This document shows, piece by piece, positions 16,570 to 38,062 of a DNA stretch of 64,000 nucleotides. The stretch's first letter is position 1. Each line of letters begins with the position of its first letter. The stretch comes from an uncultured Phycisphaerales bacterium. GTDB lineage: Bacteria; Planctomycetota; Phycisphaerae; Tepidisphaerales; Tepidisphaeraceae. The translations under genes and the position numbers were made by a program. The notes beneath the pieces are model-generated. The model had not been told where the DNA came from and made no database searches. It worked only from the letters and a program-made list of their open reading frames with translations. Location of the stretch: the NCBI GenBank assembly GCA_963755915.1, contig CAVWLP010000003.1:256001-320000 (forward strand). Reading direction: 5' to 3'.

Positions 16570-16599
16570 GCTTCATTCCCGGCAATGAGACTATTCCAA

Positions 16600-17631
16600 T
16601 CAGATCCGACGCGCGCGGCGGCGAAGTAAACCGCAACCACATAGTCCCAACAGGGACAAAGCAGCGGGCTCGGGGACGGAGATGTCAGAGACTATCAATG
16701 AGCTGTAATCAATCCGCTGTGTGGCGCCACGCATGCCGAAGCCAATCCCGTCGTAGGTGAGATTGGGCGTGGACGCGGCGGTGGCCGTGGAAGTGTTCCC
16801 TTCCTCAAATGTTCCCGCCGTGCCGCTACCCGAGCCAGTGTTCAAGTACAGCGAGTTGCTGATACTCAGCGAGCCATTGGCGTTGAGTGTAATCGTCAGG
16901 TCCTGAGTGTAGGTGTCCCCGAGGACTGCGATGTAATTCGCACCCGTATTCGCACCGAGCGAGGTTTGGGCAGACGCGCTACCGACACCCCCGATGACCA
17001 GATCCTGGTTGATCTGTTGGGTCGCCCCCGTCTGGGCTGCCCGCGAAAATATATAGTTACCGTTGCCGGCCGTAGAGGAAATCTGGCCGACATATCCGGC
17101 CCAGTTCTGTACGCCTCCGTCGGCTTCCGTGCCACTGGATGACAATCCGGAATTCTGCAGATTGGTGTAGGGCACCACCGAGGGAGCTGCCGAAACATTT
17201 CCGTTCGAATTGAACAAACCAAGATCGGTATAATCGCCCGTCGTCTGCAGGACGGCGCCGCTCGTGGCTACGAACGTCAGGTCTGCCTCGATGGTAGTAA
17301 CACCGGTCAAGGATAAGGTAACGGGCGTTTGCGTGAACAGCGATTCAAACTCGGCATAACCAGAGCTACTGGTGTAGTTCAGTTCCAGATCGCCCGATGC
17401 GATGCTGGCGCTGGCGCCCTTGTTGGATGCGGCATCGTAGCTGGTGGAAGTCGAGGTGACATTGCTGCTCGTCAGCGTTTGGTTGAGCGACGAACTGCCG
17501 AAGCCATCATCAAAGATAGTGTTGGCTTGGCCGTGCGATGAAGACAACGCGACAAGGCATCCCGCCGCAACTCCCACAAAGAGGTTGCCGGCCCGTTTGT
17601 CCGTACGACTCAAAAGATCCCTCGTTCTCAT
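16600..17631 (-). CDS. PEP-CTERM protein, Ser/Thr/Gly-rich, no recognised catalytic domain
   Basis: Signal peptide after MRTRDLL; C-terminal VPEPAALSLLGLCGCGLLRRRARRI. Confidence 0.85.
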   Translation of the reverse strand: MRTRDLLSRTDKRAGNLFVGVAAGCLVALSSSHGQANTIFDDGFGSSSLNQTLTSSNVTSTSTSYDAASNKGASASIASGDLELNYTSSSGYAEFESLFTQTPVTLSLTGVTTIEADLTFVATSGAVLQTTGDYTDLGLFNSNGNVSAAPSVVPYTNLQNSGLSSSGTEADGGVQNWAGYVGQISSTAGNGNYIFSRAAQTGATQQINQDLVIGGVGSASAQTSLGANTGANYIAVLGDTYTQDLTITLNANGSLSISNSLYLNTGSGSGTAGTFEEGNTSTATAASTPNLTYDGIGFGMRGATQRIDYSSLIVSDISVPEPAALSLLGLCGCGLLRRRARRI

Positions 17632-17801
17632 TTTCTCTCCTGTAAAGATGTGTCTCAAATCAAGCGAAATGCTCGAAACTTGTTTCAATCCAGAGCCCGC
17701 CATCTCCCACCTCCGATTAAGCGTCGCATCGGTTTGCATTCACGACACAATCGGCAGGAAGGAGATGCCGACTGGTTTCCTGCTGCTTATTTCATGGCCG
17801 A

Positions 17802-17864
17802 AATATACCCCTTCAAAAACCTCGCAACAGTGCTATATCGCGAACGGATAGGCCAAATTGCGTT
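17802..17864 (-). promoter_or_regulatory. Pectin-locus tandem direct-repeat site + -10 box (copy 1)
   Basis: Minus strand: AACGCAATTTGGCCTATCCG TTCGCGATATAGCACTGTTGCG ... TATATT. Confidence 0.65.
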
Positions 17865-17974
17865 TTGGCGGCGACATTGATTTTTGGAGTTTGTGACTGG
17901 AATTCTCATCGATTCCGCGACGACCTTGCGATCAAAGTCAAATTAGACGCCGCGGCCGATACTTTTCGGGATTT

Positions 17975-20448
17975 TTAAATCGATGCCCTGCGGCGGCGGG
18001 CCGCAAGCGTCAAGAGCCCTAGGCGACCAGGCCCATCGAGGCGGGTTCGGGAACATAAGTCAACGTGAGTTCGTTGTTGGCCAGGCTGAAGGTCCAATTG
18101 TTCGCGTCGGTTGGTGACAAAGTTGGAGTCCCGGCTTCCGTGCCGTTCCAGCTCATTAGGATAAATTTGGAACCGAGCGTGAGGCTGTTGTCCTGAATGA
18201 CATCCAGCAGGGAGCCGCTGGCGAAATTGACGTTGCCAGTTATGTCGATGGTGGAAAGCCCGGTTGAATTTATCTCGGCGGTCAAAGTCGAACGGGTGTT
18301 TTCCTGGTAGTTTCCGGTGATATCGATGCTTGAGTCACCGCCAACCACCTGGAAATTTCCAGTGCCGCCGGAACTGGCGCCCGTCCAGGTGTAGCCGAGC
18401 GTTAATCCGCCCTGATCGACGATGAGGGAACCGCCGGATATTTTATAGGTTCCGGTGCCGCTTCCGCTTTGGGCAAGACGGAGCCCAAGATTGGTGAGCG
18501 CGCTTTCGCCGGAATAGGTAATGGAATCGAGGGTGACCGTTCCCGCGGTTTGATTGAAAAGCGCGGTTCCACTTTCACCGACGGCCATGCAGCCGAAATT
18601 CATAGCGGCGGTTGAGCCGGTGAGATTCCATGTGGAAACGGCGTTCGTCGCCTGGCCGAGTTCAAATTCTTCCTGTCCCGCAAACGAATTGCCGTATTGT
18701 TCGACGGTTCCACCGCTTTGGTTGCCGGTATAGGTACCGGCCGCCGCGCCGATGTAGAAGTTAATGCCCACGAACGTCCCACCGCTCATGTTGAACGTAA
18801 ATTTTCCACCGGCGCCGTTTGTGCCCAATTGGAGCCCGTAGGTGCTGTCCATCTCCGGCGAAGAAGGCGTCCCCGACATATTCACCACCGACGTCCCTGA
18901 GCCGGAATCGATCACCCGGAGATCGTCCGAATCGGTCGCCTCGATGTTAAAGGTGGCCGAATCCGCGGAGTTGGGAGCCAGAATCACAATCGGCCCCAGG
19001 CCCGTCGAACCAAGATGCAGGGAACCGGTGTGAACGGTTATCGTGCCGGATGGCCACGCGCCGTTCGAATTCGTCCACGAGGCAACGTCGAGCGATGATC
19101 CGTTTTCAATAGTCAACTGGTCGTTTTGATTTCCGCTGTCGATCCTGGGGACGCTGAGCGCTCCGCCGTTGAGAATCAGCGAGCTCCCGCCGTCGAGGTG
19201 GAGCAGGCCGGTGACATTGAGCGCACCGCCGGAGCCGATTGTCAGCGTGGACGGTGTGCCACCCGTATTGGCGCCACCGGCGGCGGGGACTCCGACATCA
19301 AGCGTATCGACGTTAGCCGTGCTGGAAAGAATGACGGCGGCACTGGTCGCCGGTTCGATATAGATTCCCTGCCCCGCGGCCGGAAGGGCGCTCGAAGACC
19401 AATCCGCTGCGGTTTCCCATGTTCCATTTCCTCCCTGCCAGACGATGGGAACGAGCGGCACTGTGGGGTTCCAGCCGCTTAACACTTTCGTCGCAGACAT
19501 AAATGGCGCCGCCTGCGTAGCGGTCAATTGATACGGCCAGATCGCGGTTGAACTCCAACTGCTCGCCGAAGTATTGATCGGGTTATCGCTGGAATTCACC
19601 AATCCATAGGTGGTGAGCCGTTCAGTTGTGTAGGTTGTTCCAGCTCCAAAGCTGCCCCATCCGGCGATGTTGTTGCTGGCCAGCGTGTCATCCACAAACG
19701 CCGACATACCGAACGCAGAATTCCATGAGCGAGCCAGTGTCGTTGAACCGGAAGAGAGTGAGTTCAGTGTATCGTTGTAGAAAACGAATCCGTAGTTGCT
19801 GCTCTGCGGGGTGCTGGGCGCGGTGAAACCCGTGCCGCCGGTTGATAGCTGAGTGATCGTGTCGTTCGTGAAGAACCCCGTCGCCGAACCGTAGATAAAA
19901 TCGACGGTGCCCTGGATCGTGCTGTTGACGATATAAAACCGGCCGGTGTTTTCCGCCTGAAGCGTGTCCTGATACGCGTTAATTGCGACGTTGTTATAGA
20001 TCTGCTTATCGCCCTGGATATACAACGTATTTTGCTGCCCGGCGCTCGGGCCGCCGGTGTTGGCGAAGGTCATGTTCTCAAAGGTGAGATCATTTCCCGC
20101 GGCGGTCATCTGAACCGCACCGGCGCCGCCAGTGATGGTCACCGCGCTTGGCGTGGCGCCCATTCCCTGAAGGGTAATGTATTGCTGGCTGGAACTGATT
20201 GTGTCGGACTCATGGTATGTCCCCGGAAAAATCTGAATGTCATAGGGCGTCAGGCTGTTAAAAGGCACGGCATTTATCGCCGCCTGAATGGTCGTGTAAT
20301 TATTGCCGCTTTGCGTCTGGGCGGGATTGACCGTAAAAACGACCTGGCTGAAGGCGGCGGATGATAGAGCGGCGATCGCGACGGCAAAAGCCGATTGGGT
20401 CAATAAGCCAGCTCGTTTCCGATCGCGACGATGGAGTTTTGGGTTCAT
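17975..20448 (-). CDS. PEP-CTERM-anchored pectin methylesterase (CE8) with beta-rich stalk
   Basis: YTTIQAAINA, AYQDTL, GTVDFIYG, LARSW; ends VPEPASMGLVA. A one-base shift restores LGLLTLAARRRRASI*. Confidence 0.85.
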
Positions 20449-20502
20449 GGAATTTCGAAAAAAGGATTCTACAAATAAAGACTCGAACTTCCGGGGTTTT
20501 AA

Positions 20503-21888
20503 TCAGACGGCGATCCGCCGACCGCGCCAGCGGGCGGCGCAAAGGCAAGTCGCGACCGCCGCAATCAAGGCGGATAACGATCCGGGTTCCGGGACGGACA
20601 CGGTGTATTGAGCGTCGTATGAACTGGCGATATTGACTTTGGAGTTCACGAAAGAGACGCCGGTGGCGAAATTAATCTCCATGCCGGTCGGGGCGGTGAC
20701 GCTGTCGTTAATGAAACTGACGTTGGAAATCGGGATGTCCGGCAATCCCCAGAGGATTCCCGCGTCGGCGCCGCTTTGATTATCGACGGACGTCAGGCCG
20801 CTGATGGTGATATTTTCCCAGGTTGGCTCCTCCGACATTCCGGCTCCGCTGGGACTGCTCGCGGGAGTTGACGGCACGTTCGGATAATAGCTTTCGATGC
20901 TGACCGGCGTAGGCACGTTGGTCATGGTCAGGTTTGAATAGGTGAGGTTTTCGACAATTCCCCCGCGCCCGACGGCTGATTTCAGGCGAATGCCATTGCT
21001 TGTGCCGTTGAAGGTGCAGTTGGTGACGGTCAGGCCGTTCAGACCGATGCCACCGGCGCCACCATCGGTGAAACTGCCGATCGAACACCCGTGCCCAGAC
21101 CCGAAGATGACGTTATTGACCGTAATATTGGAGCTCAGGGTATCGCCGCCGATCGCGATATTGTCGTCGCCGTCCGAGATGCTGCTGTTCTCGATCAGCG
21201 CATTCTGGGCGGATATGTCGATTCCATCCGTGTTAGGCGAACTTGCAGTCGTATTGATGGTGACACCGTTCACCGTAACATTGGTGCAGGCATCGATGTT
21301 AATGTGGGTATTGGGCGGGTTCTCAAGCGTAACGCCGGCGACCTCGACTTCGGCACAGTTCTGAAAAGCCACCATTTGCGGCCGCGCAAAGTTGCTCGCC
21401 TCGTAAGCGGACCACCATGGAGCTCCCTGGCCGTTGATGATGCCCGTGCCGCTGACTTCCACATTGGACAGATTGGCGCCGTTGATAAAGTTCGTGTAAG
21501 TGTTGCCGGCGTTCGCTGGATAGGTTCCGTAGGGAAGCATCTGCAGCTCGCCATTTACCTCCAGATTCACGTGGCTCGCCATCGTCAGGGGGCCGGAGAG
21601 GTAGCTTCCGGCGGCGTTATCCGTACCCGAGATGACAACGGTACCTCCGCCGGCGGCCGAAGCCGCATTAATCGCATCCTGAATGGCAGTCGTGTCGTTC
21701 ATGCTGTCGTTGCCGACGGCCCCGTAGGTCGTGACGTTGAAGGTATTGCTCGAAATCGTCGGCAACGTCGGATTCGACCTGGCGCTGGCGGTCCACAGCA
21801 TCGACACGCCCAGCGCCAGCGGAAAAGCTCCACGATGGAGCGCATTGTTCAATCGAGTTACACGACGGCAGTTTTCTCGGTTGAGCAT
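20503..21888 (-). CDS. PEP-CTERM-anchored GH28 polygalacturonase-family enzyme
   Basis: NTDGID, GDDNI, GHG and RLK motifs; signal peptide; VPEPGSLSAL...RRIAV. Confidence 0.9.
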   Translation of the reverse strand: MLNRENCRRVTRLNNALHRGAFPLALGVSMLWTASARSNPTLPTISSNTFNVTTYGAVGNDSMNDTTAIQDAINAASAAGGGTVVISGTDNAAGSYLSGPLTMASHVNLEVNGELQMLPYGTYPANAGNTYTNFINGANLSNVEVSGTGIINGQGAPWWSAYEASNFARPQMVAFQNCAEVEVAGVTLENPPNTHINIDACTNVTVNGVTINTTASSPNTDGIDISAQNALIENSSISDGDDNIAIGGDTLSSNITVNNVIFGSGHGCSIGSFTDGGAGGIGLNGLTVTNCTFNGTSNGIRLKSAVGRGGIVENLTYSNLTMTNVPTPVSIESYYPNVPSTPASSPSGAGMSEEPTWENITISGLTSVDNQSGADAGILWGLPDIPISNVSFINDSVTAPTGMEINFATGVSFVNSKVNIASSYDAQYTVSVPEPGSLSALIAAVATCLCAARWRGRRIAV

Positions 21889-21991
21889 CGTTCCTTCCTC
21901 ATCGCGATCTGATCGGTTAGCGGTGCGAGTGAAAACGGGCGGTGGGCCAAGCCGATCAACAAAATTTAGGATCGTTATTCCGCGCTCGTTC

Positions 21992-22054
21992 AACTTACCC
22001 CAGGCTGATGGACGCACAAGAGCCTAAATGCGAACCGATGGGCCAGATTGCGCA
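21992..22054 (-). promoter_or_regulatory. Pectin-locus tandem direct-repeat site + -10 box (copy 2)
   Basis: Minus strand: TGCGCAATCTGGCCCATCGG TTCGCATTTAGGCTCTTGTGCG ... TAAGTT. Confidence 0.65.
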
Positions 22055-22072
22055 ATGAAGGACGTATGATGT

Positions 22073-23100
22073 TCAGGATGGAACTTTTTGCCCAGACCCG
22101 CTGGGCTGGGAGGAGGAATCTGCAGCATTTGCCCCGTGCATGCGAGGGTCCCAGCCGTCGTCTCCGCCAAGGAGATTTTCGATTGTCAGATTTGCCGCTT
22201 CATCATCGGTAAGTTCCCTCGACCATGAAACGCGCCCGCTGCGGTCTGCGCCGGGCCGGTGCAGTCGTATTCCGCGAATCGCGCCGTCTTCTCTTTGGCC
22301 GGATTCCCAAAGTTATTCCACCCAAGCGGATTGATGTGGGCGCCCATTTCGCAGCGAACATAGGCAACTGAAGCATAGTCGTACCAGGGCCGGCCCAGCT
22401 CGGCCATTTGGCCATCGCCCGTCAGCTTGCAATCGAGAAAAACGTACCCCCAAGGTTTGTTCTTATTCGTACTACCGGCCGTAACGTAACCCCCATTCTT
22501 GCTGTGAAGCTCACAATGGTCGAACACGGCCTGCGCGTTTCCAAATATGAAGTCGGTGCGGCCTTCGATATAGCAGTGATCGTAATACTGCCGCCCTCCG
22601 TTGGAGTAAAGCGTGTCCTGCCAGCCAAGGATCCGGCAATTTCGAAAAATCTGCCGGTCGCCCGTTGCCGACAGAGCCAGCGCCTGCCCGGTATCTCCGG
22701 CCGTGTTTTCGAAGGTGATGTTTTCCGCCACAAAATCATGTGGCTGAATCAGCACGCTGAAGCTGCCGGAAGTGCCCACCGCCTTTCCATTGGGTCCGAT
22801 GTGCTTCGCGTTCCAGTCGTTGGTGAGAATCGTGGTCTTGGCGTCATCGCCAAGGAAAGTCACAAAGGGTTTATCCTTGAGGAGCTTTGTCTGTCCCGTA
22901 TACGTGCCCGGTTTGATATGAATCGTCACCGGCTGCTTATTTTTCCCTGGAATCGCGTCAATTGCGGCCTGAACGGTTTGAAAATCACCGCTACCGTCGG
23001 ACGCGACAGTCAATGTTGTTCCCTCAGCGAAGGCGGTGCGCTGCCCGAGCACGCAAACCAGGCACAGCATGACAACAGAACAAATCGCCAAACTTCGCAT
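22073..23100 (-). CDS. Pectin methylesterase (CE8), secreted, frameshift near 22253
   Basis: GDFQTVQAAIDA, GQALAL, WQDTL, DFIFG and LGRPW. The shifted frame continues ADRSGRVSWSRELT...GWDP. Confidence 0.92.
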
Positions 23101-23114
23101 ATTGTGTCTTCCCT

Positions 23115-24331
23115 CTACCTCAGGGCGTCACCATTTCGCGAAAGTCCCTTTCCGTTTTTGCGATATACGTTTGGCGTCGCATTTTCTACTCGCATGAAAA
23201 CACGCCGAAATTGCCGCAGATCGGTGAAGCCGCAGGCCTGCGATATCCGGCTAAGCGTCATGTTCCTCTCCCGAAGCAATTCCTTCGCCCGCTGCACGCG
23301 AATTTCCGCAATGTATTCCGCGGGCGTTCGATTCAGGACGCTGTCGAACAATATTTCCAGTTGCCGGCGCAAACGCCCGCCGCGGTAACCAGCGCTTTCA
23401 CTCCGAACGGCTCGCCCGGATGGCTTTGCACAAATTCGACCGCCTTGGCGACCACCGGATGATCGATGACCATCACGTCGGTGGATTCGCGCTGAATAAC
23501 TCCATTGGGAGCGATCAGTTGATCGCATGACGGCCGCGGTTTTCCGTTCATCAGCTCGTCGAGCAGATGTGCGACCTGAAACCCGACTTTCCACCAGTCG
23601 CACTCAATTGTGGTCAACTTCGGCGAGCCAAATTCGCAGTCGATTTCGTTATTGTCGACGCCAATGATGCCCATTTCCTCCGGCACCTTTAGGCCCGCCT
23701 GCAGGCAGGCGTCGGCCAGCATCCGCGCTCGAGCGTCGCTAACGGCGAACACACCGATCGGCTTCGGCAGCTTCTTAATCCACTTGCACAGCCCGTAAAT
23801 CGCGTCGTCCCACAGTTGCTCGTGCATGAGCATGTTCGGGGAAATGTATCGAAACACGGACGAGGTTTTGGAGGCAAGCCGTGCGCAAAATTCCGATTCG
23901 CGCGTGATCGAATACCCGGCGCCTTCAACGCCATAAAACCCGAAATGCCGGAACCCCCGGTAGAGCAGATGTTCAGCCGCCATCCGGCCGATGGCCGCCT
24001 GATCCATCATGACCCGCGGAATTCCCGGATTCTGCACCAATGCCACGAACGTAACCACCGGTATTTTCATCCGCCGAGCGGCCTTGGCTTCCGCTTCCGT
24101 GCCGAAGGAAGTGATGATGCCGTCGCCCTGCCAGCGTCGGAGCGATCGGATCGAAAGATCGTTCGCCTCTCCGCTCGTCGTGAAGACCCAATTCCCGTGT
24201 TCATGCGCGTAATCGGCGATTCCCTGCACGACCGTGTGTAAATGGGCCAGCCGCACCGGGAAGGCAAGCGCAACCCGGCGCGGAGAATGTTTTTGCTTTG
24301 GCGCTATCCGTTTAGGAATCATGGCTTGCAA
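23115..24331 (-). CDS. XylR-type transcriptional regulator, frameshift near 23375
   Basis: KVPEEMGIIGVDN sensing domain; AraC HTH lies in ORF 23115-23603 (RRQLE...ISQACGF...FRRVF). Confidence 0.88.
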
Positions 24332-24335
24332 AATT

Positions 24336-25750
24336 CTAAGGACCTACCTGGTTTTCCAGTACAACAACTTGCCAGTGCGGGATGAACATGTGTACGGCCA
24401 AAAACGCGCAGGGGAAACCGCACCCGGCAAGAACGAACAGCAACGAGTAGTTCCCGCCGGTGTGCTGAAGATACCACCCGGCGAACTCCGCGAAGGCCAT
24501 CGAACCGATGGCGCCCGCTGCCGTGCCCAACCCCACCATCGAAGCGATGGCGCGCTTCGGATACAGGTCGGTTGTGATCGAGTAACTGTTGGCCGACCAC
24601 CCCTGCATCGCGGCCATCGCGAATCCCACCACCAGGATTGCCGGCCACATCAGCGGGATCAGACCCACAAAAGCAATCGGAATCACACAAAACGCGCAGA
24701 GCCCAAGCGAAAACTTGCGGGCGAAATGCACCGACTTTCCGTTCGAGATCAACCACGTCGCAAGCACGCCGCCCAAAATGCTCCCGATGAGCTGCATGCT
24801 GAACGCCGTGGCCAGCGGCCACCCCGCCTGCGAAATGCTTACCTTGAACCGGGAGGCAAGAAACTTCGGAAGCCAGAAAACCTGGAACCACATCACCGGC
24901 ACAACCAGCGCGGCCGATATCAGAATCCCCCAGGTCTGCGGAAAACGAAACAACTCAAACCAATGCACTCGGCCAACGTCCTCGTTGGCCGCCGAACGCG
25001 CAATCTCCGGATCGTCATCCGTCCGGATGAACGAAACGTCGGCCTCCGAAAGATAGCGAGACTTTTCCGGACGCTGGTAGAACAAAAGCCACAGCACGAT
25101 CCAGACGAATCCTAACGCGCAAGAACAATGAACGCCATCTCCCAATTCCAGGTCTTTACGATCCACGGGACGAGCAGAGGCGCAATGATGGCGCCGCTGC
25201 TCGTTCCGGTGTTAAACAAGCCCGTCGCCAGAGACCGCTCGCGGCGCGGGAACCATTCCCCGACCGTTTTCGTAGCGGCCGGAAAATTACCGGCTTCCCC
25301 AAGGCCAAGAGCGAAACGCGCCGCCGCGAATCCAAGAAGAGTCGTCGTCAACGCCGTCGCGCAAGCGGCCAGGCTCCACACCGCAATTGCGAAGATATAC
25401 CCCACCTTCAACCCACATCGATCGATGAACCAGCCCACGCCCAGCAGGCCGATCATATAGGCAAGCTGAAACGCGAAGACGAGGTGGCCGTATTCCTGCT
25501 CGTTCCAACCGAATTTTCCCTGCAGTATCGGGGCGAGGATCGCCATGACCTGCCGGTCCATGTAGTTGATCGACGTCGCCAGGAAGAGCAGCCCGCAGAT
25601 GAGCCAGCGAAAGGAAGCACCGTGAAAAAGTCTCCCGGAAGGTCGATTCCAGGCGACTCCCCGGCCCGCGGAAATTGATTTGGACGGCTCGGTGAAGGCC
25701 GAACGCGCCTGGCTCTCACTGCCTTCCTGCCGGGACGTGCGTAACATCAC
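24336..25750 (-). CDS. exuT: MFS hexuronate transporter (ExuT-like), frameshift near 25120
   Basis: RWLICGLLFLATSINYMDRQ, LGEAGNFPAA, EWFP..ERSLATGLFN and FWLPKFL. Confidence 0.8.
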
Positions 25751-25781
25751 GAACCTCGTCTTTCGATTCCGCTGATCGGAA

Positions 25782-25846
25782 ATGATACCGTCGATCCCGT
25801 TGCTCGCATAAAAGCGAGCCTGCGTACCAACGCGCTTAATTGCGCA
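25782..25846 (-). promoter_or_regulatory. Pectin-locus tandem direct-repeat site + -10 box (copy 3)
   Basis: Minus strand: TGCGCAATTAAGCGCGTTGG TACGCAGGCTCGCTTTTATGCG ... TATCAT. Confidence 0.55.
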
Positions 25847-25861
25847 GCCCTTGTTCCGGGA

Positions 25862-27313
25862 CTACGAACCGGCCGGCCTCGTCGCCGGATGATCAATGGC
25901 CAGCGTTTGTGAATCAATGTCGCTGCAATCCCGCGTCAAAAGGCCGGCCTCATCTTCCGTCTCAAACACGCAATCCTGGAAATGAACGCCGGTCGCATTT
26001 GTGCATGAAAAGCCGTGCCGGGACCGTACATGCACGTTACTGAAAGTAATGTCCGAGACAGGCATTTCGCGTAAACCGGTTATCGTGCCGGCGTCCGTCG
26101 CCCCGCGGACGGTTACGTTGGTGATCAGGATGTCCCGCAGCCGGGGAGTTGAGTCGCTCACCGGATATGTTTCGCCGGGCTTGTCCTTGCCCATGTAGAA
26201 CGTGGTAATTACGAACGGATGCGGAACGTCCTCCATAACGATGTTGTCAAACGCCACTCCCTCAATGACGCCGCCTCTTCCTCGCTGGCTTTTGATGCGG
26301 ATACCGCTGTCGGTTCCATGAAATACGCAATTGTTAACGGTGATGTTACGAACACCGCCCGACATTTCGCTGCCGATGGTCACACCACCATGACCATGGT
26401 AAGTCGTGCAGTTGGCGATGAGGATATCCTCGTCCGGCCGTCCCATCCTGCGGCCCGACTCATCTTCCCCGCTTTTCAGCGTGATGCAGTCATCCCCGTC
26501 GTCCACCCGGCAATTCAGAATCTGCACGCTTCGGCAGGATTCCGGATCAATACCATCTGTATTCGGCGAGGGAATGTGGGCTGAAATCGTTACCCCATCG
26601 ATGCGCACGCCGTCGCAAAGCAATGGATGAATATTCCATTCCGGCGAATCCAACAGAGTAACGTGCTCGACCACCACACTTGTACAGCGCAGAAACCGAA
26701 TCAACTGCGGACGGCCCAGCGGGAGGCCGGGCAGCGAGCCCACAATCTGAGGCTGCGGCGGCGCCGGCGGAGGGTCATACGTGCCGGTCGGGTCTTCGCT
26801 ACGTGCGTGCCGCTTGGCCTTCATCGCCAGTATGGGCCCCCACCACGATGCGCCCCGACCGTCAATCGTCCCGTTGCCGGTAACCGTGATGTCCGCCGCA
26901 TCATGCGCATAGATCAGCGCCGACATCCATCGTTTTTCTGGCTCCCACGGACTTTCCACCATCGGATAATCGGACGAGTTTTGGCTGGCAAGAAGCGTGG
27001 CGCCCTCGTCAATCTCCAGACAGACGTGAGACTTCAGCTCAAGCGCGCCGGTCAGATAGCGCCCGCCCGGGATAAGGACAGTGCCTCCGCCAGCCTCGAA
27101 GCATGCGGTAATCGCCTTCGAAATCGCCCCCGTGTCCAGAGTCCTGCCGTCGCCAACTGCACCGAAATCGGCAACATTCCAGATCGGCGGTCTGAGAGAA
27201 GCAGCTCGCGTGTCGGCGCAAATGCCGGCGGCGATCAGGGCGGCGATGAATAGTGAGCTTAATCCCGGCCGCGTCATAGAAGAATTCCTGGCGCCGCCAA
27301 GTCGCAGCCTCAT
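25862..27313 (-). CDS. GH28 glycoside hydrolase (exo-polygalacturonase-like)
   Basis: NTDGIDPES, GDDCITLKSG, GHGGVTIGSEMSGG and RIKS. ATG overlaps the upstream TAA (TAATG). Confidence 0.92.
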   Translation of the reverse strand: MRLRLGGARNSSMTRPGLSSLFIAALIAAGICADTRAASLRPPIWNVADFGAVGDGRTLDTGAISKAITACFEAGGGTVLIPGGRYLTGALELKSHVCLEIDEGATLLASQNSSDYPMVESPWEPEKRWMSALIYAHDAADITVTGNGTIDGRGASWWGPILAMKAKRHARSEDPTGTYDPPPAPPQPQIVGSLPGLPLGRPQLIRFLRCTSVVVEHVTLLDSPEWNIHPLLCDGVRIDGVTISAHIPSPNTDGIDPESCRSVQILNCRVDDGDDCITLKSGEDESGRRMGRPDEDILIANCTTYHGHGGVTIGSEMSGGVRNITVNNCVFHGTDSGIRIKSQRGRGGVIEGVAFDNIVMEDVPHPFVITTFYMGKDKPGETYPVSDSTPRLRDILITNVTVRGATDAGTITGLREMPVSDITFSNVHVRSRHGFSCTNATGVHFQDCVFETEDEAGLLTRDCSDIDSQTLAIDHPATRPAGS

Positions 27314-28206
27314 TAAAACAAAGGCTGGCCGTATTTATTCCAAGACGTCGCCCAGGCGCCGTTTTTCCAATATCCAACCAGGTAGTCCTTGGTTGTAAAC
27401 GAACTAAAAGCACTTCCACTGGGAGGCGAATTGTAAAGCCATGGGATATTGGTGATGTTGATGCTTCCGCCCCCTGGCATCACGAAATTATTCGGGGTCA
27501 CCAGGGCAACATGGCCGTCTGCGCATAGGACATTGGCTTGGGTTCGCTTGGTGTGGGGGAACCACATGAATGGGCACTGCTGCGATGCGGGAGCCCATGT
27601 GGCCCAGTGATTGCCAAGAAGGTAGTTTATTTCAGCGAACAGACTTATCCGCCATTGGTTGCTGTTACCGCCACCGCCTTCGGCATAAGCCTTATCGATG
27701 TCCGTCGCGAGAATCACGTTCCCCGGAATTCCGCTCACCTTTTGCACTGGCGCTGGGGCGGGCGACGTTGCGGGAATCACAATACTTCCGATATTTCCAT
27801 TGTACGTGTAGTCGCCCCAGTAATTATTCGTCCCAATGGGACCGGTTATGTCCAACGTGTGGTCCGCCGACGGGCAATAGAGATATTTGAGGACCGTCTG
27901 GTCGTTTTGGTTTGAGTTGTCGTTTGCGTTGTTGCCCCCCACCTCATTGCCGATCAATCCCGGAGACCACCAGAAAGTAAGCACGTTCGGCGTGCTCATC
28001 TCGGCAGGCAGTGCATAGCCCTGATAATCATCTGAATAAAGGACATAAAGAGCGTATATCTGCCGAAGATTCGACTGACACGCCACCGTATTCGCCTGCT
28101 CCCTCGCTTTCTGCAGCGCCGGCAGGAGAATTCCAATCAAAACGGCGATGATTCCGATGACCACAAGCAATTCGACAAGAGTAAATCCGGGTTTAGGTCT
28201 CCGCAT
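27313..28206 (-). CDS. Prepilin-type N-terminal cleavage/methylation protein with H-Xn-DGHV motif (DUF1559-like)
   Basis: [40 protein letters not shown] and PH...[10 protein letters not shown]. Confidence 0.9.
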
Positions 28207-28277
28207 ACTGTCCGCCTCGTAAAGTCATTTCGCTCCGTCCGAGAGATGGTGGGCGAATCGCGCCCAGCTACGGAGGA

Positions 28278-28341
28278 ACTATGACACGCCCTCGATATGC
28301 GCACTAGTGCTTTCTTGCGCATTGATGTGCTATTTTGCGCA
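28278..28341 (-). promoter_or_regulatory. Pectin-locus tandem direct-repeat site + -10 box (copy 4)
   Basis: Minus strand: TGCGCAAAATAGCACATCAA TGCGCAAGAAAGCACTAGTGCG ... CATAGT. Confidence 0.6.
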
Positions 28342-28421
28342 AGATATTCAGATGGTCTCCGCGCGCTCGCCCGATCGTAATTTAGTCTTTGAGATTCACG
28401 CTCCGCCGCGGCGCGACCCGC

Positions 28422-28484
28422 TTCGCAAAACGGATCATCCATTCGCAATATGGCTCTTTCGCGAACTGCGGGCGCCGCTATATT
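28422..28484 (+). promoter_or_regulatory. Pectin-locus tandem direct-repeat site + -10 box (copy 5)
   Basis: Plus strand: TTCGCAAAACGGATCATCCA TTCGCAATATGGCTCTTTCGCG ... TATATT. Confidence 0.65.
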
Positions 28485-28562
28485 TCCGGCAACACAACAG
28501 GCAATTCGGTCAAGGCGGTCGAATTCTCAAACGAGCTCATTCAACGTAATTGGAGGGTTATC

Positions 28563-31500
28563 ATGAAAGAGTCGAGCAGCGGCTTCCTCTCGGGCACTTT
28601 GAACAATTTCTCGCGGAACGCTCGGCGCACCCGCCGCTCCGCGGCAGTCCTGGCCTCGGCCACGGCCGTCAGCTTCCTCACGTTGAGGGGGCACGCGCAA
28701 ACGACCAATCTCACGTGGGACCCGGCACAGAATGCCAACAACTCCCTTCCCGCCAGCGGCGGCAGCGGAACCTGGAACACGACCCTTGCCAACTGGTCCA
28801 ACGGCACCGCGGACGTCGTCTGGGCGGACACCTCCGGAACGCTCGATAACGCCATCTTCGGCGGCACGGCCGGAACGGTTACGCAGAATGCAAACCTCGG
28901 TGCTGCCGAGGTGATCTTCCAAACACCGGGCTATTCCATCAACAGCGGTTCGAACATTCTGCTCCTGGCGACAGCAGGCACAACCATCGACACCAGCGAC
29001 ATCGGTTCCGGGTCCGCCAGCCTGGGCAACGTGGATATCGGCGCCAGCGCGGAAACCTGGAACGTCGGCTCGGCTGCTCTCGCCTTTAACGGCGCGGTTC
29101 GCGACAACGGGCAGTCCAGCACCACCCTCACCGTCAACGGAAGCGGCACGACTCAGCTCTCGGGCGGCCTCACGCTTACCAGTGGCAATTTTACGGCCAG
29201 GTGGACCGTTGCCGGCAGCGAAAACATTAACATTGCGGGACTCGTGCAGGACGGGAATACCGGCGGCAACTTCCTCACCTATGACGGCACGGGGACGCTC
29301 TCCCTGTCGGGAACATCCAATACGTTTGGGACCTCGACGTCATCAAATCTGGCCGTGGATAGCGGCGTGCTGGCCGTCGCCGCCGCCGGCTCGCTTGGAA
29401 GCTCCTCTAACCCGCTGGTACTTGGAAACAACACTGCCACCGCGACCTTCCAGGGCATTGGATCGAGCACCATCGCCGTTGCTAACCCCGTCACCCTCGG
29501 CGGCGGCGGTGGTGGTACCTCCATCATTGGCGGGTCTACGCCGCTGGTTTTCACCAACGTCACTGGCCAGGGCAGCTCCGATGATCTGAACGTAAATAAC
29601 ACCGCTTCCACCACCTTCAGCGGCAGCTTCTATCTTTCCGGCAGCGAAGGCAACCGAAGGGTCTTGATCGGCGGAACCGGCAGTCTCCTGATCAGCGCCG
29701 TCGTTAGCGATAATCCTTTGGAAGGACCGGGCATCAATCCTTCAACCCTTGCTTATCTCGGCACGGGAACGATGACCCTCACCAACGTCGACAACAATTT
29801 CTCGGGCGACCTGGCGGTCCAAAACGGCACAGTCGTCGTCACCAACGATGCAGTTCTCGGCGTCGGCAGCACTTTGTTCTTCGGCCCGGCTAGCGGCAGT
29901 ACGCCCGCGGGAGCGGGCATTTTTGAGGGTTCGGGCACTTCCACACTAACGATCGCCCACCCGGTGACGATAGATACCAGCACCGCGGATGACATCACCC
30001 TCGCCGGCACGACTCCGCTGCTGTTCACCAATACCATCACCTTCGACACCGCCAGTTCAACCACCAACACAGTCATCGTTAACGACACAGGCGGCGTCGT
30101 CTGGAATGCGCCCGTTTACCTTGCAACAGGCGGTAGCAATCGAACCACAACATTCGGCGGAGCCAACAATATCACTATCGACGGAGTCGTCGCCACCGGT
30201 ACGGTGGGCGTTACCACCACGTGTAATCTGGCCTATAGCGGAACCGGCACGATGACGCTCGCCAACGCCAACACCTACACCGGAACGAACACCGTTAACA
30301 GTGGCGTATTCGATGTCGCCAACACTTCCGGCTCCGCCACCGGAACCGGCAACGTAACATTGAATGGCGGCGTCCTCGCCAGCGGAAGCGTCGGCTCCAT
30401 TGCCGGCAATGTCATCGCCGGCAGCGGCGCGCACGCGATCGCCCCCGGCGGCGTCGGAAGCGTTGGAACACTGACTGTTGGCGGACTCACCACCAGTACG
30501 CTCACCACCCTGGACTTCGACCTCGGCACCGGCAGCGGCCTCGTCACCAATGGCGACAATCTCATCCTGGGCTCGGGACTCGTCAGCATTGCCAGCGGCA
30601 CACTCCTCACCTTTGGCGGCGCCACACCGGTTGCCGGCAATGACTACCAGCTCATTGGCGATACCAGTGGCTCCGGCGCCGTCGTCAGTCAGATCCAACT
30701 GGCGAATTTTACGCTCCCAGCAGCGCCGGCCGGCCTGGCCTACAGCCTCGCGGAAAGCGCCAACTTTATCGATCTCGATGTGATCAGCACCGGACCGGTT
30801 TCGCTCTTCTGGGATAATGCCGGCGGCAGTGGCAATGGCACCACCTGGGATACCAGCAACCAGAACTGGAACAACGGTTCAGCCGCAACGACCTACGCCG
30901 ACGGTGCGGCCGTCACCTTCAACGACACCAACGCCCTCCACTATGCCGTAACCCTCACCACCACCGTCAGTCCCGCCTCGGTGACGGTCAACAGCTCCGG
31001 CAACTACTCCATCACCGGCGGTGGTCTCATCGTCGCCACCGGCGGATTCACGAAGATGGGCACGAGCACTCTGACGCTCGGCGTTGGTCTGACCGCCAGC
31101 AGCCTGGCCATCAACGGTGGAAACGTCGTGCTTGCGAGCAACACGACCGCCAGCAGCGGCTGGACCGCCACCAATCCCGTCAGCAATATCAACGTCTCCT
31201 CGCTGACCATTGCGGCCAACAGCGTTCTGGACATCTCCAATAACCACGTGATCATCGACTACGGCGCCACCGACCCGATGTCTACCATCCTGGGCTACCT
31301 CAAGTCCGGCTTCAACAACGGCGCCTGGAACGGGACCTCTGGAATCATCTCGTCCGCCGCCCAGACCAAAACCAACGGCTTGACCTACAGCATCGGTTGG
31401 GCCGACGGAAACGACAAAACCGGGGCCGTGAAAAACCTCACCAGCGGCGAGATCGAATTGAAGTACACGCTGGTCGGCGACGCCAATCTCGACGGCACCG

Positions 31501-31811
31501 TCAACGGCTCCGACTTCTCGATCCTGGCCGCCAACTTCGGCCTCGGCGTCACCAACTGGGACCAGGGGAACTTCCTGTATGGCAGTTCGGTCAACGGCTC
31601 CGACTTCAGCGCCTTGGCGGCGAACTTCGGCCAGGGCGATAGCGGCGCTGCCGTGACGGTTACGCCCGCAGACGTGCAGGCGCTCGACGCCTTCGCGGCC
31701 GCCAACGGCCTGCCAGCGCCGACGATCGCCGCGGTGCCGGAACCTGCGAGCCTTGGCCTCTTGGCGCTGGGCGCCACCAGTTTACTGGCCCGCCGCCGGC
31801 GGTCTGAGTGA
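28563..31811 (+). CDS. Large PEP-CTERM protein with autotransporter-associated beta-strand repeats and dockerin-like repeat
   Basis: Start MKESSSG after GGAGG. Has GTGTMTL.NANTYTG-type repeats, duplicated NGSDFS.LAANFG and VPEPASLGLLALGATSLLARRRRSE. Confidence 0.88.
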   Translation: MKESSSGFLSGTLNNFSRNARRTRRSAAVLASATAVSFLTLRGHAQTTNLTWDPAQNANNSLPASGGSGTWNTTLANWSNGTADVVWADTSGTLDNAIFGGTAGTVTQNANLGAAEVIFQTPGYSINSGSNILLLATAGTTIDTSDIGSGSASLGNVDIGASAETWNVGSAALAFNGAVRDNGQSSTTLTVNGSGTTQLSGGLTLTSGNFTARWTVAGSENINIAGLVQDGNTGGNFLTYDGTGTLSLSGTSNTFGTSTSSNLAVDSGVLAVAAAGSLGSSSNPLVLGNNTATATFQGIGSSTIAVANPVTLGGGGGGTSIIGGSTPLVFTNVTGQGSSDDLNVNNTASTTFSGSFYLSGSEGNRRVLIGGTGSLLISAVVSDNPLEGPGINPSTLAYLGTGTMTLTNVDNNFSGDLAVQNGTVVVTNDAVLGVGSTLFFGPASGSTPAGAGIFEGSGTSTLTIAHPVTIDTSTADDITLAGTTPLLFTNTITFDTASSTTNTVIVNDTGGVVWNAPVYLATGGSNRTTTFGGANNITIDGVVATGTVGVTTTCNLAYSGTGTMTLANANTYTGTNTVNSGVFDVANTSGSATGTGNVTLNGGVLASGSVGSIAGNVIAGSGAHAIAPGGVGSVGTLTVGGLTTSTLTTLDFDLGTGSGLVTNGDNLILGSGLVSIASGTLLTFGGATPVAGNDYQLIGDTSGSGAVVSQIQLANFTLPAAPAGLAYSLAESANFIDLDVISTGPVSLFWDNAGGSGNGTTWDTSNQNWNNGSAATTYADGAAVTFNDTNALHYAVTLTTTVSPASVTVNSSGNYSITGGGLIVATGGFTKMGTSTLTLGVGLTASSLAINGGNVVLASNTTASSGWTATNPVSNINVSSLTIAANSVLDISNNHVIIDYGATDPMSTILGYLKSGFNNGAWNGTSGIISSAAQTKTNGLTYSIGWADGNDKTGAVKNLTSGEIELKYTLVGDANLDGTVNGSDFSILAANFGLGVTNWDQGNFLYGSSVNGSDFSALAANFGQGDSGAAVTVTPADVQALDAFAAANGLPAPTIAAVPEPASLGLLALGATSLLARRRRSE

Positions 31812-31848
31812 GTGTCGATGATCTGCACGACCAACAGGTCCTCCTCTG

Positions 31849-31891
31849 CCGACCGCGACCATCCCTCCGAGGCGCGGTCGGTTTCTTATTT
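31849..31891 (+). terminator. Probable Rho-independent terminator
   Basis: CCGACCGCG...CGCGGTCGG stem followed by TTTCTTATTT, just after the PEP-CTERM gene. Confidence 0.55.
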
Positions 31892-31975
31892 GTTTCCCGG
31901 GGAGGCTTACGTTATTCCGGCAGAAGTTCGAAGGGGATGATTCACGCTAACGCTTCGTGTGTTCGCGACACTCTG

Positions 31976-33334: not shown

Positions 33335-33371
33335 GGGGAATCCACTCAGAATCTTTCGCTTTGAGAAGCAT

Positions 33372-35600: not shown

Positions 35601-35623
35601 ACCGCTACGCCGCCGCCATTTCA

Positions 35624-36480
35624 TCAATGCCAGTCGCGCGGCCCTTTGGGCTTGTCACGCAGAGATTCCATGGAAATGGATCGAACGGCGGCGATCAATT
35701 CCGCCGACATCGCCGCCAGCTGCGCGATCAACGGACGAATCTCCTCAAATTGCTGCCCGCCCGCGCGGTCTTCTATTTCAAGCGCCACGGCGCCGGCCTT
35801 AGTGGAAACCGTGGAGATCATTCCCCCCAGCCTGTGACCCGACTGCGCCAGCCGGGAAGAATCGCGCGCCTGAAACGCCTCCTGCACATCCGCCAGATAT
35901 TCAGGAAGTCCAACCAGAAACTGCCTGCAAATGACGTTGAGATTCTCCTGGTCATACCCGCTGGCCGCGAGCAGAACGCCGGCGTCGATCAGGTCAGGGC
36001 CCGATCGCGCCTGCAGGTATGGCGCTGTGACCGCGTGTTGAACCGCATTCCGCAAGGCGTCCATCTTGATCGGCTTGTGAAGAAAATTGTCCATGCCGGC
36101 AGCGAGGCAGCGCTCGCGCACCGCACGGCTCGTACCCGCGGTAAGTGCGACCACCGGAAGATGCCCTCCCATCCGGCGTTCACGCTCGCGGAGCTGCTGG
36201 ATCACCTCGAACCCGTCCATTTCCGGAAGCTGAATATCCAGCAGAAGCACATCAAAGCCCCCACCGGCAGCGAGGTCAAATGCCTCACGCCCATTGGCCC
36301 GCGCTGAACCGAATGCCCCTCTCGCGTAAGAAGCCGTTCCAGCAGCCGGGCGCTGAACTCATCGTCTTCCGCGATCAGAAAGCTTAGCGGCGCAGCCGAT
36401 GGTAGCGCAAAATGTGCCGCGCCAAGATTCAGTTCCGAGCTTGCGGCCACGGATTTTGTGCGGCTCTGGCGGCTCATCAT
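35624..36480 (-). CDS. Receiver + Hpt domain protein, frameshift near 36295
   Basis: LIAEDDEFS joins DVLLLDIQLPEMDG, then KP and an Hpt-like GHRLGG. Confidence 0.72.
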
Positions 36481-36593
36481 TATCCGACCACAAAACGCGA
36501 CGTCCAATTCCCGACAATTCGGCGAAACTCGCCCGCCGATCAATTTCCAACTATATTAACAAATGTCCGCAATGGCTTCCAAGATCACCAAAA

Positions 36594-38049: not shown

Positions 38050-38062
38050 AGATCGTCGCCGC

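What the first reader, a model, noticed from the sequence alone, without database searches (positions are those of the whole stretch)
17802..28484. Five-promoter regulon motif linking pilin-like, PEP-CTERM, enzyme and transporter genes
Seen: five copies (17802-17864, 21992-22054, 25782-25846 and 28278-28341 on minus; 28422-28484 on plus) of a 20-bp tandem repeat, roughly TKCGCAWWWWRGCHCWT. Each second unit ends in GCG at the -35 position and is followed by a -10-like hexamer (TATATT, TAAGTT, TATCAT, CATAGT, TATATT). Total span is 63-65 bp and every copy points toward its gene. Known: this is the layout of AraC-family class II activation. Inference: the XylR at 23115-24331 co-activates the whole set, which is sequence-level evidence that the prepilin-like and non-catalytic PEP-CTERM proteins belong to the pectin system.
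Basis: partly seen in the sequence, partly recalled or inferred. Interest (0 to 1): 0.8.

Follow-up and report, generated by a model that had tools for sequence, protein, structure and literature searches.

The report
Shared operator of a pectin locus
Five promoters in one pectin-degrading gene cluster of an uncultured Verrucomicrobia-like bacterium carry the same two-part DNA signal, most likely the docking site of the sugar-sensing regulator encoded in that cluster; the control logic is ordinary, but it ties pilin-like and surface-anchored proteins of unknown role to pectin use.

Summary
Each site has two asymmetric units (about T-K-CGCAA-wwwr-GC-n-C) 20 bp apart. A GTGCG-like block follows, then a -10-like hexamer 35-37 nt after the second CGCA. 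All five sites point at their genes.

The tandem form occurs nowhere else in the 6.63 Mb genome. In leave-one-out scans, 4 of 5 left-out sites were the best untrained hit genome-wide. A motif finder given no prior pattern recovered all five in register.

A metagenome contig encodes an 87% identical, intact regulator and carries the motif at 3-4 promoters, while four-fold degenerate sites are only 45-56% identical.

The architecture matches what is published for E. coli XylR: about 37 bp, two direct repeats, next to a poor -35. The embedded regulator aligns over its full length to XylR. Binding and activation are inferred, not shown. The regulator gene also carries a 1-nt frameshift in this assembly, probably a long-read error.

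A paralogous pectin locus with a different XylR paralog lacks the motif, so this is a local operon set, not a genome-wide pectin regulon.

Verdict: a new member of a known kind, of moderate interest.

The parts
17802..17864 (-). Operator/promoter 1: two 20-bp units, TTGCG block, TATATT. Drives the PEP-CTERM lectin-like gene.
   Evidence: 37.9 bits; left out: 26.9, best non-training hit
21992..22054 (-). Operator/promoter 2: two units, GTGCG, TAAGTT. Drives GH28 and the CE8-like 809-aa gene.
   Evidence: (42.8 bits). It is 36 of 42 identical to L068:3924, against 45-56% identity at four-fold sites.
25782..25846 (-). Operator/promoter 3, the weakest (second unit degenerate): ATGCG, TATCAT. Drives the MFS, XylR-type regulator and CE8 genes, so the regulator would be autoregulated.
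   Evidence: 32.3 bits; left out: 16.9, third non-training. The L068 counterpart keeps the unit A core and TATCAT (26 of 42).
28278..28341 (-). Operator/promoter 4: GTGCG, CATAGT. Drives the prepilin-type gene and GH28. Divergent from site 5.
   Evidence: 42.4 bits; left out: 30.2
28422..28484 (+). Operator/promoter 5: TCGCG, TATATT. Drives the PATR/PEP-CTERM 1082-aa gene, GH28 and GH52.
   Evidence: 44.7 bits; left out: 33.3
23115..24331 (-). XylR-type regulator: periplasmic-binding-protein-like sensor plus AraC-type DNA-binding domain. The likely ATG is at 24322. It is split into two frames by a 1-nt deletion near 23372.
   Evidence: Pfam Peripla_BP_3, PBP1_XylR, HTH_18, HTH_AraC. Frames. 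One-base gap against L068. The intact L068 ortholog aligns to E. coli XylR 4FE4/4FE7 over residues 73-446, E 4e-44.
24336..25747 (-). MFS transporter of the anion:cation symporter type (galactonate/hexuronate-transporter subfamily). Split by a 1-nt deletion near 25120.
   Evidence: Pfam MFS_1. NCBIfam TIGR00893 on both halves.. Start codon.
22186..23100 (-). CE8 pectinesterase, 14 nt after the regulator stop (same transcription unit as site 3, inferred)
   Evidence: Pfam Pectinesterase, E 5e-59
20503..21888 (-). GH28 polygalacturonase-family gene. The ATG at 21888 and its Shine-Dalgarno sequence are conserved in L068.
18019..20448 (-). 809-aa protein with a pectinesterase-like N-terminal domain. 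The 82% ortholog in L068 ends in PEP-CTERM and has its own operator copy.
16600..17703 (-). PEP-CTERM protein with a predicted L-type-lectin-like beta-sandwich. The start is at 17703 or 17631.
   Evidence: Pfam PEP-CTERM. AlphaFold2 model pLDDT 66, pTM 0.68. Foldseek PDB top hits are legume lectins and the ERGIC-53 carbohydrate-recognition domain, E about 5e-8, TM by target 0.42-0.52. Atlas leads.
25862..27313 (-). GH28 gene. Its start coincides with the stop codon of the prepilin-type gene.
27313..28206 (-). Prepilin-type N-terminal methylation-motif protein, 297 aa, of the large planctomycete/verrucomicrobial pseudopilin-like family
   Evidence: Pfam N_methyl E 1.7e-7; PF07596 only sub-threshold (E 0.027, 14.9 bits against a cut-off of 23.3). 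Atlas neighbours carry N_methyl and PF07596. At least 7,327 relatives at E<=1e-8 among 8,000 scored.
28563..31811 (+). 1082-aa PATR (autotransporter-type beta-strand repeat) protein ending in PEP-CTERM
31808..33334 (+). GH28 gene overlapping the PATR gene stop (same unit, inferred)
33372..35600 (+). GH52 gene, 38 nt downstream (same unit, inferred). This is the end of the cluster.

Best explanation
The five elements are activator-dependent promoters of one local regulon of five transcription units and 12 genes:
- the PEP-CTERM lectin-like gene;
- GH28 and the CE8-like gene;
- MFS, the XylR-type regulator and CE8;
- the pseudopilin-like gene and GH28;
- the PATR/PEP-CTERM gene, GH28 and GH52.

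Each promoter has an operator of two asymmetric 20-bp units in direct repeat. Each unit has a CGCA(A) box and a GC-n-C box about one helical turn apart. This is the footprint expected of one AraC-type DNA-binding domain with its two helix-turn-helix motifs. If the -10-like hexamer is the true -10, the units cover about -69 to -53 and -49 to -33. The proximal unit then takes the place of a -35 element.

The XylR-type protein encoded in the MFS-regulator-CE8 unit most likely binds as a dimer, one DNA-binding domain per unit. A pectin-derived sugar bound to its periplasmic-binding-protein-like domain would allow it to recruit RNA polymerase. This would induce enzymes, transporter, surface proteins and the regulator itself.

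Shown: the motif, its uniqueness, its geometry, its conservation with the regulator, and the regulator's domain architecture. Inferred: binding, the sign of regulation, the inducer, the transcription start sites and the operon boundaries.
For: The motif is real and locus-specific.

Similarity among sites is confined to the units, the GTGCG block and the -10. Flank identity is 0.21-0.23.

The -10-like hexamer lies at a fixed distance, and no canonical -35/-10 pair is found in the five intergenic regions.

The units are asymmetric, with conserved positions on one side only. They repeat directly at 20 bp in 8 of 9 sites and at 21 bp in 1 of 9.

E. coli XylR binds about 37-bp sites made of two direct repeats next to the -35 of promoters with poor -35/-10. 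Two of those promoters are divergent (PMC3561964, passages). Sites 4 and 5 here are divergent too.

The regulator has the XylR architecture. It is the only transcription factor gene in the cluster.

Contig L068 has an intact regulator with 86.5% amino-acid identity. The window-trained matrix scores 38.7, 31.1 and 22.4 bits there, before a GH28, a CE8-like PEP-CTERM gene and a GH43, and there is a partial site before the MFS gene. The other 112 loci scanned (113 loci, 1.19 Mb in all) reach at most 22.3 bits, apart from L001, the window's own copy of site 2.

Operator 2 is 36 of 42 identical to its L068 counterpart, with changes at low-information positions. Four-fold degenerate sites are 45-56% identical.

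The second recognition helix of the regulator (FTDLRQFRRVF) is identical in L068 and different in all 8 intact paralogs of this genome.

The paralogous pectin locus, which has a different XylR paralog, has no copy of the motif.
Against: No binding, expression or start-site data exist.

The regulator ORF is frameshifted in the assembly inside its DNA-binding domain. If the frameshift is real, the motif would be orphaned in this strain.

Only one comparator genome exists, so conservation rests on two sequences. The whole site-2 intergenic region is fairly conserved, at about 70%.

The genome has 11 XylR-type genes at E<=1e-30, so another paralog cannot be excluded.

Site 3 is weak in both genomes.

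The E. coli paper reports one XylR dimer binding two separate operators. The one-domain-per-unit stoichiometry assumed here is therefore not certain.
Confidence: 0.65

Rival explanations
1. The operator is real, but a different transcription factor binds it: another of the XylR-type paralogs (for example the one at window 4754-5860) or a factor of another family encoded elsewhere.
For: There are 11 XylR-type matches in the genome at E<=1e-30. One more lies in the window beside a GH36 gene. The local regulator is frameshifted as assembled.
Against: The motif occurs only around the embedded regulator and moves with its ortholog in L068. The recognition helix differs in every intact paralog. The paralog at 4754-5860 sits in an alpha-galactosidase context. 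The other GH28 loci with their own paralogs lack the motif.
Confidence: 0.15
2. The same operator is a repressor site: a protein sitting over the -35 region blocks RNA polymerase until an inducer releases it.
For: The proximal unit overlaps the place where a -35 would lie. Sequence alone cannot give the sign of regulation.
Against: None of the five promoters has a recognisable -35 or scores as a sigma-70 promoter. That is typical of activator dependence. The characterised protein of this architecture, E. coli XylR, is an activator that does not bind DNA without sugar (PMC3561964, passages).
Confidence: 0.1
3. The junction of the two units (GGCnC ... TTCGCA) is a sigma-54 -24/-12 promoter served by the NtrC-type response regulator at 36399-37553.
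For: Sites 1 and 2 read TGGCC-N-TTCGC, loosely like TGGCAC-N5-TTGC (consensus recalled). A sigma-54 activator gene lies 1 kb beyond the cluster.
Against: The G that would make the -24 GG is present in only 5 of 10 units (position +8). The GG-to-GC distance is one base longer than in the consensus. A well-placed -10-like hexamer follows every site instead.
Confidence: 0.02
4. The copies are relics of promoter duplication, or chance matches, with no current function.
For: The cluster holds three GH28 paralogs, so duplication has occurred.
Against: Flanks are at random identity (0.21-0.23) while unit positions are kept. The motif precedes unrelated genes: a lectin-like protein, the MFS transporter, the pseudopilin-like protein and the PATR protein. 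In L068 it precedes a GH43. It is conserved against near-saturated synonymous divergence. It is unique in 6.6 Mb.
Confidence: 0.03

Closest known systems
E. coli XylR and its IA/IF operators at xylAB and xylFGH
   Same: The regulator has the same two-domain architecture and a full-length alignment (E 4e-44 for the L068 ortholog). The operators are about 37-40 bp, made of two direct repeats, beside a poor -35. A divergent promoter pair is present. Control is local, over a sugar uptake and utilisation locus (PMC3561964, passages).
   Different: Sensor-domain identity to the nearest genomic relatives is only about 30-37%. The unit sequence is T-K-CGCAA-N4-GC-n-C, against the A/T-rich gaAa-a-a-AAT. 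There are five operators rather than two. The targets are pectin enzymes, an anion-type MFS transporter and surface proteins, so the inducer is unlikely to be xylose (inference). The organism is Verrucomicrobia-like.
AraC at araBAD I1-I2 and XylS at Pm
   Same: Two direct-repeat half-sites at a period of about 21 bp spanning roughly -70 to -35. The proximal one overlaps the -35. One DNA-binding domain with two helix-turn-helix motifs binds each half-site.
   Different: The sensor domain is of another fold (cupin-type in AraC). The period here is 20 bp rather than 21. An extra conserved GTGCG block follows the proximal unit.
Bacteroidota polysaccharide utilisation loci with SusC/SusD and hybrid two-component or SusR regulators (recalled)
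   Same: One substrate-specific cluster joins degradative enzymes, surface glycan-binding proteins, an importer and its own sensor-regulator.
   Different: No SusC/SusD-type hit appeared among the cluster proteins scanned. Surface proteins carry PEP-CTERM anchors. A pseudopilin-like protein is included. The regulator is a cytoplasmic XylR-type protein.

Membership tests
AraC/XylS-family direct-repeat operator at an activator-dependent promoter | Asymmetric unit of about 17-20 bp with two conserved boxes roughly one helical turn apart | tested here: met
   CGCA at +0..+3 and GC at +9..+10, with C at +12. There is no conservation 5' of T(-2).
AraC/XylS-family direct-repeat operator at an activator-dependent promoter | Two units in direct repeat at a period of about two helical turns | tested here: met
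   20 bp in all 5 window sites and 3 of 4 L068 sites; 21 bp in 1
AraC/XylS-family direct-repeat operator at an activator-dependent promoter | Proximal unit abuts or overlaps a weak -35, with the -10 at fixed distance | tested here: met
   The -10-like hexamer lies at +35 to +37. No canonical promoter scores in these regions. The start sites are not mapped, so the numbering is inferred.
AraC/XylS-family direct-repeat operator at an activator-dependent promoter | Bound by an AraC-family protein that raises transcription | not testable with these tools
   No RNA holder was listed.
XylR-type regulators (LacI/PBP-like sensor fused to an AraC DNA-binding domain) | N-terminal periplasmic-binding-protein-like domain plus C-terminal double helix-turn-helix, aligned over the whole length of E. 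coli XylR | tested here: met
   Pfam Peripla_BP_3, PBP1_XylR (26.8 bits, just under the cut-off of 27), HTH_18 and HTH_AraC. PDB 4FE4/4FE7 E 4e-44 over residues 73-446 of the L068 ortholog.
XylR-type regulators (LacI/PBP-like sensor fused to an AraC DNA-binding domain) | Intact reading frame | tested here: not met
   The window copy has a 1-nt deletion near 23372 relative to L068. It is intact in L068. Four genes in 26 kb are split in this 3-contig, 81%-complete assembly, so an assembly error is likely.
XylR-type regulators (LacI/PBP-like sensor fused to an AraC DNA-binding domain) | Xylose as effector | not tested
   The context is pectin (GH28, CE8, an anion-type MFS transporter), which suggests another sugar.
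Sigma-54 promoter | Invariant GG and GC spaced as in TGGCAC-N5-TTGC (consensus recalled) | tested here: not met
   G at the GG position in 5 of 10 units; the spacing is one base too long.
PF07596 (DUF1559/SBP_bac_10) pseudopilin-like proteins | Pfam score above the gathering cut-off | tested here: not met
   14.9 bits against 23.3, first 20 profile positions only. N_methyl is met. The language-model neighbours carry PF07596 in 27-42% of members.

The most novel reading that the evidence does not exclude
This is a SusC/D-independent polysaccharide utilisation locus of Verrucomicrobia-type bacteria. Its substrate capture and uptake apparatus would be built from PEP-CTERM-anchored lectin-like and beta-strand-repeat proteins plus a substrate-dedicated pseudopilin-like protein. 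All of these are switched on with the enzymes by one XylR-type sugar sensor.

Support beyond the motif:
- The two closest full-length paralogs of this pseudopilin, among 61 matches in the genome, lie inside or beside the other two large GH28 clusters.
- Seven of 11 XylR-type genes have a prepilin-type gene within 10 kb, against a mean of 1.7 for random placement (P about 4e-4). Paralogs and CAZyme islands are not independent, so this is only indicative.

If true, it would give a first functional handle on the very large pseudopilin-like and PEP-CTERM families of this group of bacteria.
Probability: 0.35. Interest if true: 0.65.

Novelty: new member of a known kind. Interest (0 to 1): 0.4.

Why it matters
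Transcription-factor operators are almost uncharted in Verrucomicrobia-like bacteria. Two full-text searches found no paper on such a motif (Verrucomicrobia/AraC/pectin/PEP-CTERM; Planctomycetes/Verrucomicrobia/regulon/AraC). Those searches cover only the held open-access library.

This case gives a clean, testable operator-regulator pair. It also gives sequence-level grounds to treat a pseudopilin-like protein, a lectin-like PEP-CTERM protein and a PATR/PEP-CTERM protein as parts of a pectin system. In one paper read, PF07596 proteins are called a family of solute-binding proteins, and no function is given in the passages read (PMC2754498, passages).

The regulatory logic itself is textbook AraC/XylR, so the gain is annotation and a functional lead, not a new mechanism.

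Tried and rejected
RNA evidence: no RNA holder was listed for window 20400-28700, so start sites and co-induction could not be examined.

Earlier notes of this scan: none for this genome.

Orthologs of the regulator: no match above 36% identity in 40 relatives (tally includes G014) or above 35% in the species-representative genome collection (47 loci). Only one close ortholog turned up among 46 metagenome loci.

Exact-pattern scan of 401 genomes of the class (includes G014): 43 have a match. G000 has 3, all in the locus. The only other genome with 3 has identical copies of a 10-bp tandem repeat. The hits elsewhere are mostly G+C-rich, look unlike the operator, and occur alongside hits to the reversed control pattern.

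Analogous tandem operators around the other XylR paralogs: the lag-20/21 self-similarity screen and the seed-count screen recovered the known motif but gave only marginal signals elsewhere. In the paralogous pectin locus, the de novo aligner scored slightly above shuffles (40.6 against 36.9-38.3; 48.0 against 43.4-43.8). It pointed to an A/T-rich rAAAyCGrAA-like repeat. This is suggestive but not established.

Extra regulon members: the weak candidates at C3:579137(-), C3:380331(+) and C2:2107992(+) score 16-26 bits. They precede unrelated or uninformative genes, apart from C2:2107992, which lies about 390 nt upstream of two GH16-PATR genes, the second ending in PEP-CTERM. They are not counted as members. 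Single units scoring 14 bits or more number 105 genome-wide and are scattered.

Rfam: no match at E<=0.1 in 16000-36000.

UxaC (PF02614): not found in this 81%-complete genome, so no link to a cytoplasmic hexuronate pathway could be drawn.

The sigma-54 reading was rejected (see rivals).

Supplementary files of papers were not consulted.

Full report
OBSERVATION

Aligned on the CGCA core, each reads CGCA-N16-CGCR-N14-CG.

From the ten units, C-G-C at +0..+2 and G at +9 are invariant. T at -2, A at +3 and C at +10 occur in 9 of 10 units, and C at +12 in 8 of 10. Positions +4 to +8 are A/T-rich.

After the second unit comes a (G/T)TGCG-like block at +15..+19. A -10-like hexamer then begins 35, 35, 37, 36 and 35 nt after the second CGCA: TATATT, TAAGTT, TATCAT, CATAGT, TATATT.

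All five sites face the adjacent gene. The likely start codons lie about 30 to 165 nt beyond the hexamers.

IS IT MORE THAN CHANCE?

A position weight matrix of the ten units was scanned as a tandem (spacing 19-21) over both strands of the whole 6,626,754-base genome. It gave seven hits of 22 bits or more. The five sites scored 32.3-44.7; two unrelated places scored 23.8 and 22.3.

That matrix is trained on its own sites, so I repeated the scan leaving one site out each time. Sites 1, 2, 4 and 5 were each the best non-training hit in the genome. Site 3 has a degenerate second unit and ranked third among non-training hits.

A motif finder given only the five upstream regions and a 62-nt width returned the five sites in register. 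Its information content was 56.3, against 39.5-40.0 for three shuffles.

Pairwise identity among the sites is 0.64-0.65 in the units and 0.76 in the GTGCG block. It is 0.21-0.23 in the flanks. The copies are therefore not recent promoter duplicates.

TANNNT at offset 35-37 is found in 6 of 8 sites (five here, three in L068). The background is 0.0037 per position.

An exact core pattern searched in 401 genomes of the same class found three hits in this genome, all in the locus. Elsewhere it found only scattered, mostly G+C-rich matches alongside hits to the reversed control (the tally includes the unpublished genome G014, and nothing specific rests on it).

THE GENES

The window is G000:C3:256001-320000. 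Family scans give this order:
- GH95 (14144-16569, split);
- PEP-CTERM protein (16600-17703, minus), preceded by site 1;
- CE8-like 809-aa protein and GH28 (18019-21888, minus), preceded by site 2;
- CE8, XylR-type regulator and MFS transporter of the galactonate/hexuronate subfamily (22186-25747, minus), preceded by site 3;
- GH28 and a prepilin-type protein (25862-28206, minus), preceded by site 4;
- site 5, then a PATR/PEP-CTERM 1082-aa protein, GH28 and GH52 (28563-35600, plus).

Gaps of 14 nt, or overlaps, between genes within each group suggest five transcription units (inference). Beyond 35.6 kb the genes are unrelated: a sigma-54 activator, a hybrid kinase and an ECF sigma factor.

The PEP-CTERM protein folds, at moderate confidence (pLDDT 66, pTM 0.68, 16-sequence alignment), into a beta-sandwich. 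Its best PDB matches are L-type lectins. It is better described as lectin-like than merely non-catalytic.

The prepilin-type protein belongs to a very large family (at least 7,327 relatives at E<=1e-8 among the 8,000 scored). It reaches PF07596 only below the cut-off.

THE REGULATOR

As assembled, the regulator is in two frames (332 and 162 aa). Alignment with the ortholog on L068 shows a single missing base near 23372, in the first helix-turn-helix. The MFS gene likewise lacks one base near 25120.

GH95 and a GH36 gene upstream are also split. The assembly has three contigs but only 81% marker completeness. Long-read indel errors are therefore the likeliest cause, though this is not proven.

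The intact L068 protein aligns to E. coli XylR (PDB 4FE4/4FE7) over residues 73-446 with E 4e-44.

COMPARATIVE EVIDENCE

No ortholog above 36-37% identity was found in 40 relatives or among the 47 loci returned from the species-representative collection.

Among 46 metagenome loci, one contig (L068, 11.5 kb) encodes a regulator 86.5% identical over 319 residues. The matrix trained only on the window scores 38.7 bits before a CE8-like PEP-CTERM gene, 31.1 before the GH28 ortholog and 22.4 (21-bp spacing) before a GH43 gene that the window lacks. A partial site with the same TATCAT hexamer precedes the MFS gene.

In all, 113 loci totalling 1.19 Mb were scanned. Apart from L068 and L001, the window's own copy of site 2 (42.8 bits), none exceeds 22.3 bits.

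Four-fold degenerate sites in five gene pairs are 45-56% identical. Operator 2 is 36 of 42 identical, with the changes at weakly informative positions. The 40 nt upstream are 26 of 40 identical, and the spacer 10 of 17. Operator 3 is less conserved (26 of 42).

The motif thus follows the regulator even where gene order has changed. This rests on a single comparator.

SPECIFICITY

The genome has 11 XylR-type matches at E<=1e-30 and 18 GH28 matches.

A second locus at C2:3752591-3770694 holds the same families. These are a CE8-like protein (76% identical), the PATR/PEP-CTERM protein (67%), the pseudopilin (57-73%), MFS (45-50%), CE8 (46%), several GH28 genes and a XylR paralog (35%). It has no copy of the motif.

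The second recognition helix of the DNA-binding domain is identical between the window regulator and L068. It differs in all eight intact paralogs.

Together this argues that the motif tracks this regulator, not pectin genes in general.

MECHANISM

The E. coli XylR paper (PMC3561964; passages read) states the following. XylR binds about 37-bp sites, each of two direct repeats. The sites lie next to the -35 of promoters with poor -35 and -10 elements. The two operons are divergent. Binding needs the sugar.

The present sites have the same size, repeat structure, position and (for sites 4 and 5) divergent arrangement. No canonical sigma-70 promoter scores in the five intergenic regions.

I therefore read them as activator-dependent promoters. 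The dimeric regulator would place one double helix-turn-helix domain on each 20-bp unit. The CGCA box and the GC-n-C box would lie in successive major grooves. The proximal unit would stand in for the -35.

Site 3, which drives the regulator's own unit, is the weakest in both genomes. That would fit a basal, partly regulator-independent expression (speculation).

The stoichiometry is uncertain, because the E. coli work reports one dimer bridging two operators. The role of the GTGCG block is unexplained.

RIVALS

Another paralog, or an unrelated factor, may be the binder (0.15). The site may act as a repressor operator (0.10). A sigma-54 reading fails on GG conservation and spacing (0.02). A relic or chance origin is contradicted by the flank-versus-unit contrast and by conservation (0.03).

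COMPARISON AND NOVELTY

This works like E. coli XylR, and the regulator is a member of that architecture. The operator sequence, the regulated substrate system and the phylum are new. I found no description in two full-text searches of the held library.

It is a new member of a known kind.

The more interesting by-product is functional. A pseudopilin-like protein and two PEP-CTERM surface proteins share the operator with pectinases. The closest paralogs of the pseudopilin sit in or beside the other GH28 clusters. Seven of 11 XylR-type genes have a prepilin-type neighbour within 10 kb (not independent events).

VERDICT

Interest is 0.4.

Noticed in passing
window 5922-8139, 14144-16569, 23115-24331, 24336-25750: Four genes (GH36, GH95, the XylR-type regulator, MFS) are each split into two overlapping frames. 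For the last two, the cause is a single missing base relative to L068 (near 23372 and 25120). The assembly has 3 contigs but 81% completeness. This looks like long-read indel error, which would affect gene calls genome-wide.
   Followed up: partly
window about 21945-21975 (minus strand), leader of the GH28 gene: A block in the 5' leader (TAAATTTTGTTGATCGGCTTGG) is 22 of 22 identical to L068. It is more conserved than the operator, while four-fold sites are 45-56% identical. A GATCGG...CCGATC long-range stem is predicted in both, but two sequences give no covariation. There is no Rfam match. Its role is unexplained.
   Followed up: partly
G000:C2:3752591-3770694 (outside the window): This is a paralogous pectin locus with the same gene families and its own XylR paralog, but without this motif. 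It has a weak, unconfirmed A/T-rich tandem candidate (rAAAyCGrAA-like) before four of its genes.
   Followed up: partly
window +15..+19 after each second unit (e.g. 22017-22013, 28304-28300): A conserved (G/T)TGCG block follows the proximal unit in 8 of 9 sites. It is 18 nt, not 20, from the second CGCA. It may be a partial third box or a polymerase contact. Unexplained.
   Followed up: no
window 4754-5860 (+) and 8147-9217 (-): A second XylR-type regulator sits beside a GH36 alpha-galactosidase gene, and a LacI-family regulator lies nearby. A prepilin-type gene is at about 9756. This is a separate sugar system.
   Followed up: no
G000:C2:2107992 (+), locus L146: A weak tandem look-alike (21-bp spacing, 16-22 bits, GGGGTATGAGT hexamer region) lies about 390 nt upstream of two GH16-PATR genes; the second ends in PEP-CTERM. 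It may be a site of a related regulator, or chance.
   Followed up: partly
window 45271-47132 (-): A HamA-domain gene (E 9.5e-39) lies next to a DEAD/DEAH helicase gene. This pairing resembles the Hachiman anti-phage system (the system name is recalled).
   Followed up: no
window 36399-41889: A sigma-54 activator with a receiver domain (384 aa, no DNA-binding domain seen, possibly truncated), a hybrid histidine kinase with Hpt, and an ECF-type sigma factor lie directly after the pectin cluster.
   Followed up: no
whole genome G000: There are 61 matches to the prepilin-type protein, mostly to its N-terminal 60-70 residues, and 21 matches to PF07596. Seven of 11 XylR-type genes have such a gene within 10 kb.
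   Followed up: partly
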